DNA of 64,000 nt, taken from the NCBI RefSeq assembly GCF_044324785.1, contig NZ_CP172127.1; one strand, 5' to 3'. How positions within the stretch are numbered: the stretch's first letter is position 1; each line of letters begins with the position of its first letter. This document shows, piece by piece, positions 44,001 to 47,000 of this stretch. Made by a program: the position numbers. The stretch comes from Escherichia coli (lineage in GTDB: Bacteria > Pseudomonadota > Gammaproteobacteria > Enterobacterales > Enterobacteriaceae).

Positions 44001-47000
44001 ACATCAGCTTTAAGAATATCATTTGTTGTTTCCAGGGAGTGTATCAGACTTAAGATAATATTTTTATTATTAACATTATCGCCTGAAAGCATTAAATTGG
44101 TCACAGCCTGCCCTAACACAGCTGACTCTTCTTCTAACAAATTACCTGAACTACGAAAGTAACTTGATAACGCTTTATCAGTTATTGCATTATGAATAGT
44201 AGTATCTTCAAGCATGGTAACCTCTCATCTTACTTATGAAATTTTAATGTATTCTGTTTATTTTCTTACCATTGAACATACTTTTATTGTCAGCTATCGC
44301 TGTTCTTCTGTTTGGCCCTCCTGTATCACTGTTGCTAAAATCACGAATTATGCTGTCAATTAAATCTCGTCGGAAAGCATTTTCCTCAGCCGATTTCATT
44401 ACGAGTAATTGCTTAATAAGAGTCTGCAACGAAAAATTTATCTTCATGCGCAGTATATGGAGCACCGCCTGGCCAGTAATTTCATATTTTATACTTTCAT
44501 TATCAGATGTCTTCATAACGACTTCATAGCTAACCTGTTAAATACTCAGGCTGTTGCATTATTCAAAAAGCAACCCAATTAGTGCATTATAATGTTTCTG
44601 TTCCTCTTCCCCTGTCGCTTGTTCCAGTCGGCAAAGAAGTTTGGCACAAAGCGACTTTCGACTCAGATTACGTCCATCTTTCAAAATCTCAGTCACAATT
44701 TCCCCGAGAGTTTCCTGCTGAGTAGGCAAGTTAGCTTTTGCAAAGTAACGAGTGATTGCTCCCGCAGAATCTGAAGTCACTGAATTTTGATGCATGCTAC
44801 GCCTCTGTTAAAAATGTTAATCAATGTTAAGTGAGGTAACAATAGCAAACTTGTACGAAATATGTGTACAGAATGATAAATTAATTTTTTGCAATTAGTG
44901 CTAATGCATATAAAACAATGCCTTATGATATAAAATATTGCATCATTTAAATGACAACCTATACAATGTTTTTCGCCAAATCGTCTTCAACTTTTTCCAC
45001 TTTTTATCAATGTAAAGAAACGGTTATGTTTTGGTATTAAAAGAAAGACACAAGAAGATATGTCTGTTACCGTCTTACTCTCGCCTCGCCCATTACCCTG
45101 GATTGTTAATGCTTACCACCCTTATTTATCGTAGCCATATACGTGACGACGAACCTGTCAAAAAAATCGAAGAAATGGTTTCGATAGCAAATCGCAGGAA
45201 CATGCAGTCTGATGTAACAGGGATCTTACTGTTTAATGGTTCTCATTTTTTCCAGCTTCTGGAAGGTCCGGAAGAACAGGTTCAACTGATATTTCGGGCT
45301 ATATGTCAGGATCCACGGCACTATAATATTGTTGAACTGTTGTGCGATTACGCGCCTGCTCGCCGTTTTGGCAAAGCAGGAATGGAATTATTTGATTTAC
45401 GCCTGCACGAGCGAGATGACGTTTTACAGGCCGTATTCGACAAGGGTACATCAAAATTTCAGCTAACTTATGATGACAGAGCGCTACAATTTTTTCGTAC
45501 TTTTGTCCTTGCAACCGAACAATCAACCTATTTCGAGATCCCTGCTGAAGACTCCTGGCTTTTTATCGCTGACGGATCTGATAAAGAACTTGATTCCTGC
45601 ACCCTTTCACCAAATATAAACGACCACTTTGCCTTTCATCCTATTGTCGATCCCTTATCGCGGCGGATAATCGCTTTTGAAGCCATTGTGCAAAAAAATG
45701 AAGACAGCCCGTCAGCTATAGCGGTTGGGCAGCGTAAAGAAGGGGAAATCTACACAGCGGATCTCAAAAGTAAGGCGCTTGCATTCGCGATGGCACACAC
45801 ACTTGACCTCGGTGACAAAATGATTTCAATCAATCTATTACCTATGACCCTGGTTAACGAGCCTGATGCAGTCTCTTTTTTACTTGATGAAATAAAGGCC
45901 AATGGCCTGGTGCCGGAACAAATCATCGTTGAATTTACCGAAAGTGAAGTCATATCTCGGTTTGATGAGTTTGCCGAAGCGGTTAAATCGTTAAAGGCTG
46001 CCGGTATCAGTGTAGCAATTGATCATTTTGGCGCAGGTTTTGCCGGTTTGTTACTCCTGTCACGCTTCCAGCCTGACAGAATTAAAATCAGTCAGGAATT
46101 GATTACCAACGTTCATAAAAGCGGGCCACGGCAGGCAATTATTCAGGCGATCATAAAATGCTGTACATCACTTGAAATTCAAGTCTCTGCTATGGGTGTG
46201 ACAACACCAGAAGAGTGGATGTGGCTTGAATCTGCAGGAATTGAGATGTTTCAGGGAGATCTGTTTGCGAAAGCTAAATTGAATGGTATCCCTTCAGTTG
46301 CGTGGCCGGAGAAAAAATAATTTTCAGCACATTATTTCGCATGATTTCTGGAAATCATCGTGAAAATGAATACGTTATGTTTTAATTTAATCCACATTAA
46401 AAATAATGTTTCATCCAATTTAGCTGAAATCTTATTTATACTTTGTACAATTTTAGCGTATATTGTACAAAGTATTATTGGGTCGTGTACAGGCGACGGA
46501 GATTTATGACCGCAAGGAGGAATTGTGGCTTATTACAGCATTGGTGATGTTGCTGAACGTTGCGGGATTAATCCTGTCACTCTCCGGGCCTGGCAACGCC
46601 GCTACGGTTTGTTAAAACCACAGCGCAGTGAAGGCGGACACCGACTCTTTGATGAAGAAGACATACAACGCATCGAAGAGATCAAGCGTTGGATAAGTAA
46701 TGGCGTCCCTGTAGGCAAAGTTAAAGCATTACTGGAAACCACCAGCCAGGATACGGAAGATGACTGGAGCCGCCTGCAAGAAGAGATGATGTCAATTCTT
46801 CGTATGGCTAATCCTGCCAAACTACGCGCGAGAATTATTTCACTGGGTCGAGAGTACCCGGTAGATCAATTGATTAATCATGTTTACCTTCCTGTTCGTC
46901 AGCGTCTCGTGCTTGATCACAACACCTCCCGCATTATGAGCAGTATGTTTGACGGCGCATTAATTGAATACGCAGCAGCCTCACTTTTCGAAATGCGCCG

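What the first reader, a model, noticed from the sequence alone, without database searches (positions are those of the whole stretch)
46441..46472. Perfect 11-bp-arm palindrome upstream of bluR, sharing a TGTACA core with the ycgZ promoter
ctttgtacaat-N10-attgtacaaag sits 53 bp upstream of the bluR start, and the ycgZ promoter carries ttgtacgaaatatgtgtaca (44851..44870). BluR is a MerR-family repressor known to repress ycgZ-ymgA-ariR-ymgC and to be antagonised by BluF. The shared TGTACA half sites suggest these are BluR operators and that bluR may be autoregulated from its own promoter rather than only co-transcribed with bluF.
Basis: partly seen in the sequence, partly recalled or inferred. 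Interest (0 to 1): 0.45.

Follow-up and report, generated by a model that had tools for sequence, protein, structure and literature searches.

The report
Predicted BluR self-operator on bluR promoter
A perfect palindrome carrying two TTGTACAA boxes lies on the mapped promoter and start site of the E. coli blue-light repressor gene bluR, and the same box pair is conserved in front of bluR-like genes in dozens of genera, so BluR very probably represses its own gene; this is a sensible but untested addition to a known circuit.

Summary
The arms are 14 nt, not 11 (46438-46451 / 46462-46475, 10-nt spacer). It is the longest perfect inverted repeat in the window, with about 0.02 expected by chance.

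The core is TTGTACAA-N12-TTGTACAA. The published bluR start site (54 nt upstream of the GTG, so about 46471) falls in the right arm. The palindrome therefore spans -33 to +5 of a sigma70 promoter.

In 80 related loci (662 kb), all 74 exact TGTACA pairs fall in two places. These are the ycgZ promoter (N7/8) and the promoter of the bluR-like gene (mostly N13). A pair with at most one mismatch is present at 65 of 68 BluR-like genes and at 0 of 12 Enterobacteriaceae mlrA genes. Erwiniaceae genes in the mlrA position also carry it, so the self-site looks ancestral.

Best explanation: a BluR operator that gives negative autoregulation, relieved by BluF. Binding was not tested, and no paper I could search reports it.

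The spacing matches the long MlrA box (N12 at csgD) rather than the short ycgZ operator.

Verdict: new member of a known kind, moderate interest.

The parts
46438..46475 (.). Perfect palindrome: 14-nt arms ATACTTTGTACAAT / ATTGTACAAAGTAT with a 10-nt spacer. Predicted BluR (MlrA-family) operator spanning -33..+5 of the bluR promoter.
   Evidence: Identical in K-12.
46444..46449 (.). Hexamer H1, TGTACA (within TTGTACAA), at -27..-22.
   Evidence: Near-invariant across genera in the alignment of N13 sites and in A4.
46464..46469 (.). Hexamer H2, TGTACA (within TTGTACAA), at -7..-2. It overlaps the end of the -10 element and abuts the start site.
46486..46491 (.). Third TGTACA hexamer (H3) at +16..+21, 16 nt after H2. 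Polymorphic in E. coli (TGTAGA in two of two variant strains inspected), so probably accessory or fortuitous.
46459..46464 (+). Predicted -10 hexamer TATATT of the bluR promoter.
   Evidence: Promoter scan gives TTTATA-18-TATATT. It sits 7 nt upstream of the published start site.
46435..46440 (+). Predicted -35 hexamer TTTATA.
   Evidence: Consensus match only.
46471..46471 (+). bluR transcription start site inferred from the paper: 54 nt upstream of the GTG at 46525.
   Evidence: PMC3509220 primer extension. The coordinate arithmetic is mine.
46525..47256 (+). bluR (ycgE), 243 aa: MerR_1 HTH + MlrA_helical + MlrA_C.
45109..46320 (+). bluF (ycgF), the BLUF-EAL anti-repressor of BluR.
   Evidence: Function from PMC3509220.
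44852..44870 (-). Published BluR operator in the ycgZ promoter. On the ycgZ strand it reads TGTACAcatatttCGTACA (hexamers N7 apart), at -39..-21.
44559..44795 (-). ycgZ, first gene of the BluR-repressed ycgZ-ymgA-ariR-ymgC operon.

Best explanation
The palindrome is an operator for BluR, the MlrA-family MerR-like repressor encoded just downstream.

Its two TTGTACAA boxes (H1 at -27..-22, H2 at -7..-2) bracket the -10 element and touch the start site of the sigma70 promoter of bluR. Bound BluR would therefore exclude RNA polymerase and repress its own synthesis (negative autoregulation).

BluF removes BluR from DNA in blue light and cold. The same signal that derepresses ycgZ-ymgABC should therefore also raise bluR transcription, which would form a feedback loop that limits or resets the response.

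Shown: the sequence, its position relative to the published start site, the identity of the ycgZ operator, and conservation of the box pair. Inferred: occupancy by BluR, the sign of regulation, and the feedback role.
For: (1) The half-site matches experimentally defined sites. The BluR footprint at ycgZ has GTACA/TGTAC half-sites. BluR also shifts the csgD fragment, which carries the MlrA box TTGTACA-N12-TGCACAA (PMC3509220; box confirmed in K-12 DNA).

(2) The published bluR start site at -54 puts the palindrome at -33..+5. A TTTATA-18-TATATT promoter match fits that start.

(3) In 80 loci from other genera (662 kb), all 74 exact TGTACA-N5..16-TGTACA pairs lie in one of two places. 28 are in the ycgZ promoter (N7/8) and 46 are 30-80 nt upstream of the bluR-like start codon (N13 x33).

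(4) With at most one mismatch, 65 of 68 BluR-like loci carry a pair and 0 of 12 Enterobacteriaceae mlrA loci do.

(5) The hexamers carry about 2 bits per position while the surrounding DNA carries about 0.

(6) The site follows the regulator gene even where bluF and ycgZ are absent: Erwiniaceae loci syntenic with mlrA and a 45%-identical clade.

(7) The paper describes BluR as a repressor only, which fits a site over the core promoter.
Against: No binding or expression experiment on this fragment was found. Tschowri 2009, which used ycgE::lacZ fusions, could not be read.

The hexamer spacing (N14, centre to centre 20 bp) differs from the validated ycgZ operator (N7, 13 bp). The same binding mode therefore cannot be assumed.

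BluR bound the long-type csgD site more weakly than ycgZ.

MlrA recognises the same half-site.

The 14-nt arms are specific to E. coli. Elsewhere symmetry beyond TTGTACAA is modest.

The whole E. coli genome could not be scanned, so specificity within E. coli is untested.
Confidence: 0.7

Rival explanations
1. The site is mainly an MlrA box. The paralogue MlrA (or MlrA as well as BluR) binds the bluR promoter, so that the curli activator cross-regulates the blue-light repressor rather than BluR regulating itself.
For: The published MlrA box AAAATTGTACA(12N)TGTACAATTTT has the same TTGTACA...TGTACAA half-sites and a long spacing. Genes in the mlrA chromosomal position in Erwiniaceae carry the pair.
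Against: In Enterobacteriaceae that have both paralogues, the pair sits at bluR and never at mlrA (0 of 12; K-12 mlrA upstream has none). The site therefore tracks the BluR lineage. At csgD MlrA acts as an activator from far upstream, whereas this site covers the -10 and +1. The spacing is N14, not N12.
Confidence: 0.15
2. The conserved hexamers are promoter elements rather than operator half-sites. TTGTAC would act as a -35-like box and TACAAn as a -10-like box, 16-17 bp apart, and they would be conserved simply because they are the bluR promoter.
For: TTGTAC-17-TACAAA has canonical geometry in E. coli (sequence). The scan flags TACAAT as -10-like. The spacing is tightly conserved at N13.
Against: That promoter predicts a start near 46478, about 7 nt from the published one. 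TACAA(A/C/G) usually lacks the -7 T. The same hexamer pair occurs at N7 in ycgZ promoters, where it cannot be -35/-10 and where mutations abolish BluR binding. Both boxes are the same self-complementary octamer, unlike -35 and -10. A dual role is possible.
Confidence: 0.1
3. The palindrome acts as an RNA hairpin on bluF read-through transcripts, as a weak terminator or stabiliser that separates bluF from bluR.
For: The RNA folds into the 14-bp stem, at -17.6 kcal/mol for the 71-nt stretch, z = -3.3. It lies 118 nt after the bluF stop. bluF and bluR are reported not to be an operon.
Against: The stem is AU-rich (3 G-C pairs), the loop is 10 nt, and there is no proper U tract. The terminator scan does not call it, and there is no Rfam match. 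In other genera only 8-nt boxes are kept, and the pair is conserved where the upstream gene is divergent. The bluR mRNA itself starts inside the right arm.
Confidence: 0.04
4. It is a chance palindrome in AT-rich spacer DNA, or a site for an unrelated factor such as RcdA or SrsR.
For: The spacer is 31% GC. RcdA (box TTGTnnACA) and SrsR have gSELEX signals in this neighbourhood.
Against: Chance expectation is 0.017 per 64 kb, and cross-genus conservation argues against chance. There is no TTGTNNACA in the spacer, and the RcdA targets are in the bluF-ycgZ spacer. The proposed SrsR box lies inside bluF at about 46033.
Confidence: 0.01

Closest known systems
BluR operator in the ycgZ-ymgABC promoter (Tschowri, Lindenberg & Hengge 2012)
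   Same: Same locus and the same TGTACA/GTACA half-sites. It overlaps core promoter elements, is compatible with pure repression, and is conserved across the same genera.
   Different: At ycgZ the hexamers are N7(8) apart and cover the -35 and spacer of a sigmaS promoter. Here they are N14 apart (N13 elsewhere) and cover the spacer, -10 and +1 of a sigma70 promoter. Binding here is untested.
MlrA box upstream of csgD (Ogasawara, Yamamoto & Ishihama 2010): AAAATTGTACA(12N)TGTACAATTTT
   Same: TTGTACA...TGTACAA inverted boxes with a long spacer. BluR has measurable affinity for that site.
   Different: N12 versus N14. The csgD site lies far upstream and activates, whereas this one sits on the core promoter. 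One csgD hexamer is imperfect (TGCACA).
CarH / LitR / CarA light-responsive MerR-type repressors with the CarS anti-repressor
   Same: The BluR DNA-binding domain is closest in sequence to LitR 3whp and CarH 5c8d (E about 1e-14) and to CarA 2jml. These regulators belong to light responses. [quoted passage not shown] From my own knowledge, not tested here: they repress promoters that include their own operons.
   Different: BluR has MlrA_helical and MlrA_C domains, not a B12-binding module. Light is sensed by the separate protein BluF. The CarH operator consists of tandem 11-bp repeats (my knowledge).
Canonical MerR-type promoters (merT, copA, zntA, soxS)
   Same: A MerR-family HTH regulator with a dyad-symmetric operator inside the promoter.
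   Different: Those operators are about 18-22 bp and sit within a 19-20-bp spacer, and the regulator switches to an activator. Here the dyad spans 26-38 bp, is centred near -14.5, the predicted spacer is 18 bp, and BluR is a repressor only.

Membership tests
BluR/MlrA-type TGTACA operator | Pair of TGTACA (GTACA) half-sites | tested here: met
   Two perfect TTGTACAA boxes at 46443-46450 and 46463-46470. Reference sites.
BluR/MlrA-type TGTACA operator | Position overlapping a promoter that the regulator could control | tested here: met
   The published TSS at -54 gives +1 = 46471, so the palindrome spans -33..+5. A TTTATA-18-TATATT match fits.
BluR/MlrA-type TGTACA operator | Conserved linkage of the site with the regulator gene across genomes | tested here: met
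   65 of 68 BluR-like loci carry a pair, against 0 of 12 Enterobacteriaceae mlrA loci. All 74 exact pairs in 662 kb lie at bluR-like or ycgZ promoters.
BluR/MlrA-type TGTACA operator | Same half-site spacing as the footprinted ycgZ operator (N7) | tested here: not met
   N14 in E. coli and N13 in most genera, against N7/8 at ycgZ. The geometry is of the long MlrA type.
BluR/MlrA-type TGTACA operator | Direct binding by purified BluR (EMSA or footprint) and derepression in a bluR mutant | not testable with these tools
   The 2012 paper tested only the ycgZ and csgD fragments. No report was found in the searchable corpus.
MlrA box (csgD type) | TTGTACA-N12-TGTACAA located upstream of the core promoter and acting in activation | tested here: not met
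   The half-sites match, but the spacing is N14 and the site covers the -10 and +1.
Canonical MerR-type promoter | Operator dyad inside an over-long 19-20-bp -35/-10 spacer | tested here: not met
   The best promoter match has an 18-bp spacer. The dyad centre (46456.5) is at about -14.5 and the right arm covers +1.
Intrinsic (rho-independent) terminator of bluF | G+C-rich stem with a short loop, followed by a U tract | tested here: not met
   Not called by the terminator scan. 3 G-C pairs of 14, loop of 10, tail UAUUAUUGGG.
RcdA box | TTGTnnACA unit | tested here: not met
   No match in 46321-46524; the only 3 matches in the window are elsewhere. Box definition from PMC3535384.
Known structured RNA (Rfam) | Match to a curated covariance model | tested here: not met
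   No match with E <= 1 in 46250-46620 on either strand.

The most novel reading that the evidence does not exclude
The paired-TGTACA self-operator is ancestral to the whole MlrA/BluR family. It was kept by BluR and by Erwiniaceae genes in the mlrA position, and lost at Enterobacteriaceae mlrA.

The family also uses two fixed operator geometries: short N7 at ycgZ, and long N12-14 at its own promoter and at csgD. A rigid MerR dimer cannot serve both. This implies a second binding mode or a higher-order oligomer, similar to CarH.

The BluF-BluR light and cold switch would then contain a built-in negative feedback loop.
Probability: 0.35. Interest if true: 0.55.

Novelty: new member of a known kind. 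Interest (0 to 1): 0.4.

Why it matters
BluR is currently described as a repressor with one physiological target promoter, ycgZ-ymgABC.

A self-operator would add a feedback loop to the BluF-BluR-Ymg-Rcs pathway, which links blue light and cold to curli and biofilm control. It would also change how bluR expression data are read: induction of bluR in the cold could itself be derepression.

The comparative data add a point about evolution. The duplicate, BluR, keeps the ancestral promoter architecture and is closer in sequence to the Erwiniaceae genes in the mlrA position than E. coli MlrA is.

The data also raise a concrete structural question of how one MerR-like protein reads hexamers 13 bp apart and 19-20 bp apart.

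None of this overturns current understanding, since autoregulation of a repressor is common.

Tried and rejected
1. Chance palindrome: rejected by simulation and by conservation.

2. RcdA (TetR-type, box TTGTnnACA, gSELEX hits near ycgF): there is no box in the bluF-bluR spacer, and its published targets are in the bluF-ycgZ spacer.

3. SrsR (gSELEX peak in the bluF/bluR spacer): its proposed box gCAGgTTTTGC lies inside bluF at about 46033 and coincides with a published sigma54 site, not with the palindrome.

4. bluF terminator or structured RNA: weak AU-rich hairpin, no U tract, no Rfam match.

5. Literature searches for bluR/ycgE autoregulation, BluR ChIP, gSELEX and iModulon found nothing relevant. 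Tschowri 2009 and Sumi 2020 are not held.

6. Extended arm symmetry as a conserved feature: only modest beyond TTGTACAA (140 complementary cells against 118 +/- 7 when permuted). The 14-nt arms are therefore an E. coli peculiarity.

7. Distant homologues (<=39% identity; Dickeya and others): no exact hexamer pairs upstream. The motif is therefore not universal in the MlrA_C family.

8. A whole-genome scan of E. coli for further pairs could not be done with the data held.

Full report
**Setting.** The window is E. coli chromosome. The local gene order is pdeG, ymgC, ariR, ymgA, ycgZ (minus strand), then bluF and bluR (plus strand), then ycgX ... icd. The bluR product is 243 aa with MerR_1, MlrA_helical and MlrA_C domains.

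**Observation.** The reported palindrome is present at the stated coordinates. It is longer than described: 14-nt perfect arms (46438-46451, 46462-46475) around a 10-nt spacer. It is the longest perfect inverted repeat with loop <=30 in the window, the runner-up being 11 nt. A repeat of that size is expected 0.017 times per 64 kb, or 0.067 times if the whole window had the spacer's 31% GC. The core is two copies of the self-complementary octamer TTGTACAA, 12 nt apart, which equals TGTACA-N14-TGTACA. A third TGTACA follows at 46486-46491. TGTACA pairs within 5-16 nt occur only here in the window, with 0.00 expected. The sequence is identical in K-12 MG1655, and the 66-nt core is 100% identical in 3846 of 4971 matching E. 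coli records. The two single-mismatch strains I inspected both carry the change in the third hexamer (TGTAGA), not in the palindrome.

**Relation to the promoter.** Tschowri, Lindenberg and Hengge (2012, PMC3509220) mapped separate start sites for bluR, bluF and ycgZ at 54, 30 and 36 nt upstream of the start codons. They state that bluR and bluF are not an operon and that bluR is read by sigma70 polymerase. For the GTG at 46525 this gives +1 = 46471, an A inside the right arm. The consensus scan finds TTTATA(46435)-18-TATATT(46464), whose -10 ends 7 nt before that position. The palindrome therefore covers -33..+5, with H1 at -27..-22 and H2 at -7..-2. An RpoD-holoenzyme gSELEX study also lists a constitutive promoter in this spacer (PMC3946193).

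**The ycgZ site.** This matches the published DNase I footprint: GTACA...GTACA overlapping TGTAC...GTACA, covering the -35 and spacer. That footprint was confirmed by EMSA and by lacZ fusions with point mutations. The same paper shows that BluR also shifts the csgD fragment carrying the MlrA box, more weakly than PycgZ. I confirmed that box in K-12 DNA as TTGTACA-N12-TGCACAA. The bluR promoter fragment was not among the fragments tested.

**Comparative test.**
- An alignment of BluR homologues was used to fetch 80 loci from named genomes.
- 41 of them keep the bluF-bluR / ycgZ...ariR arrangement. These include Citrobacter, Pseudocitrobacter, Kluyvera, Enterobacter, Lelliottia, Klebsiella, Buttiauxella, Leclercia, Cedecea, Kosakonia, Phytobacter, Atlantibacter, Superficieibacter and Pluralibacter.
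- 27 have a BluR-like gene (54-68% identical) without detectable bluF or ycgZ; one of these (L038) is cut off just upstream of the gene. 12 are mlrA-like, about 50% identical to BluR; 11 of them keep at least part of the mlrA neighbourhood (btsSR, yohO, yehWX), while the Tatumella locus L083 shows none of it.
- In the 662 kb fetched, every one of the 74 exact TGTACA-N5..16-TGTACA pairs lies in one of two positions. 46 end 30-80 nt upstream of the BluR-like start codon (N13 x33, N14 x4, N12 x3, N11 x4, N10 x1, N7 x1). 28 lie in the ycgZ promoter (N7 or N8).
- Allowing one mismatch, 65 of 68 BluR-like loci have a pair in the 20-150 nt upstream, and 0 of 12 mlrA loci do.
- In the aligned N13 sites the hexamers are essentially invariant while the flanks are unalignable. 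The consensus is cAagTTGTACAat.AAAAA..a.TTGTACAA.
- The ycgZ promoters show TGTACA-N7/8-TGTACA followed about 12 nt later by a TGTATAAC-type -10. This is the geometry footprinted in E. coli.

A hexamer pair validated as a BluR site at one promoter, and found otherwise only in front of the regulator's own gene, is the classic signature of an autoregulatory operator.

**Evolution.** 17 of the 27 loci without bluF, all of them Pantoea, Erwinia, Mixta or close relatives, are followed by yohO and/or yehW-yehX, as E. coli mlrA is. Yet their products are closer to BluR (62-67%) than to E. coli MlrA (52-56%). Erwinia strains with a second, bluF-linked copy carry hexamers at both (L020/L055, L023/L053). 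K-12 and Enterobacter mlrA leaders have no pair. An alignment suggests a relic: TGTGCA plus an A-tract, with the second box lost, and a shared GTTAAG leader motif. That alignment is weak. A 45%-identical clade also has TGTACA-N13-TGTACA, whereas homologues at <=39% identity do not. The self-site therefore seems ancestral to the MlrA/BluR group, kept by BluR and lost at Enterobacteriaceae mlrA. This extends the duplication scenario of the 2012 paper.

**Mechanism.** I take the site to be a BluR operator that blocks the -10 and +1 of PbluR, relieved when BluF sequesters BluR.
- Steps shown: the sequence, its position, the published half-site, and conservation.
- Steps inferred: occupancy, the sign of regulation, and the feedback role.
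- Main open point: geometry. Centre-to-centre distances are 13-14 bp at ycgZ, against 19 bp (20 in E. coli, 18 at csgD) at the long sites.
- The BluR DNA-binding domain is closest to LitR, CarH and CarA. From my own knowledge, the heads of those proteins are tethered to an oligomerising C-terminal module. This makes two binding modes conceivable but does not show them.
- The strongly conserved, asymmetric A-tract in N13 spacers, inverted to a T-tract in E. coli and Citrobacter, is unexplained.
- Symmetry beyond TTGTACAA is only modest outside E. coli.

**Rivals.**
- MlrA as occupant: same half-site, but the site tracks bluR, not mlrA, wherever both paralogues exist.
- Hexamers as -35/-10 elements: the geometry fits, but this conflicts with the mapped start by about 7 nt, with the N7 sites at ycgZ, and with the identical self-complementary boxes.
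- bluF terminator hairpin: -17.6 kcal/mol, but AU-rich, with a 10-nt loop, no U tract, not called by the scan and no Rfam match.
- RcdA, SrsR or chance: rejected.

**Novelty.** The own promoter of bluR and the ycgZ operator are published. I found no report of a BluR or MlrA site at PbluR, or of bluR autoregulation, in the searchable corpus. The 2009 paper could not be read. I rate this a new member of a known kind, of moderate interest.

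Noticed in passing
window 46028-46044 (+), inside bluF: Sigma54-type -24/-12 motif TTGGCGCAGGTTTTGCC. It corresponds to the published intragenic sigma54 site IS13 that points towards bluR (PMC4591121). It also contains the 'SrsR box' gCAGgTTTTGC that another paper assigns to bluR regulation (PMC9181523). The two reports may describe the same element.
   Followed up: partly
window 46486-46491: Third TGTACA hexamer in the bluR leader (+16..+21). About a fifth of matching E. coli records differ from the 66-nt core, and both variant strains inspected have TGTAGA here. 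Superficieibacter and Pluralibacter also have a third hexamer, at other distances.
   Followed up: partly
L089 (E. coli 2018-11-1BCC) 788-1536; equivalent to window ~46452-46461: An IS1A element is inserted in the 10-nt spacer of the palindrome. The left arm, bluF and the ycgZ side are gone; the right arm and bluR remain. This is a natural half-operator mutant.
   Followed up: partly
window ~46381-46408: An RpoD-holoenzyme gSELEX study predicts a constitutive promoter TTTAAA-16-AATAAT in the bluF-bluR spacer and flags H-NS binding (PMC3946193). If real, it is a second bluR promoter upstream of the palindrome, which would then act as a roadblock.
   Followed up: no
window 44862-44870 (ycgZ operator region): ATGTGTACA here matches the RcdA box TTGTnnACA at 8 of 9 positions and overlaps the distal BluR hexamer. 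RcdA footprints tandem boxes in the ycgF-ycgZ spacer (PMC3535384), so the BluR and RcdA sites may overlap.
   Followed up: no
L031 3859-3892 and equivalent positions in most Pantoea/Erwinia loci: A second conserved palindrome, TCTCAtatttgggaaatattctcttaaaTGAGA, lies about 25-40 nt upstream of the TGTACA pair. It sits at the start of a divergent XRE-HTH/cupin regulator gene followed by a GNAT acetyltransferase, and is probably that regulator's own operator.
   Followed up: partly
L010-L081, 17-27 nt downstream of hexamer 2; also K-12 mlrA leader (L086 ~2845): Conserved leader motif GTTA(A/G)G(G/T)T in the 5' UTR of BluR-like and mlrA genes of many genera. It is absent from the E. coli bluR leader. 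Function unknown.
   Followed up: no
L021, L032, L035, L041, L042, L044, L047, L049, L052 (Enterobacter cloacae complex, Lelliottia): In these genomes the bluR promoter carries a short-type pair TATACA-N7-TGTACA instead of the N13 pair. The ycgZ-type geometry can therefore also serve at the regulator's own promoter.
   Followed up: no
L014, L018 (Pseudescherichia vulneris, Escherichia sp. ESNIH1): The bluF-bluR gap is only about 65 nt and has no hexamers. bluR is probably co-transcribed with bluF there, in contrast to E. coli.
   Followed up: no
L101, L095, L091: More distant MlrA_helical-domain MerR proteins sit next to photolyase, SnoaL, short-chain dehydrogenase and amine-oxidase genes. These are light-response-type clusters and hint that the whole family is tied to light signalling.
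   Followed up: partly
L002 (E. coli L73): The right-arm hexamer is TGCACA, the same variant as in the csgD MlrA box, in a strain whose bluF is a pseudogene with an internal stop.
   Followed up: no
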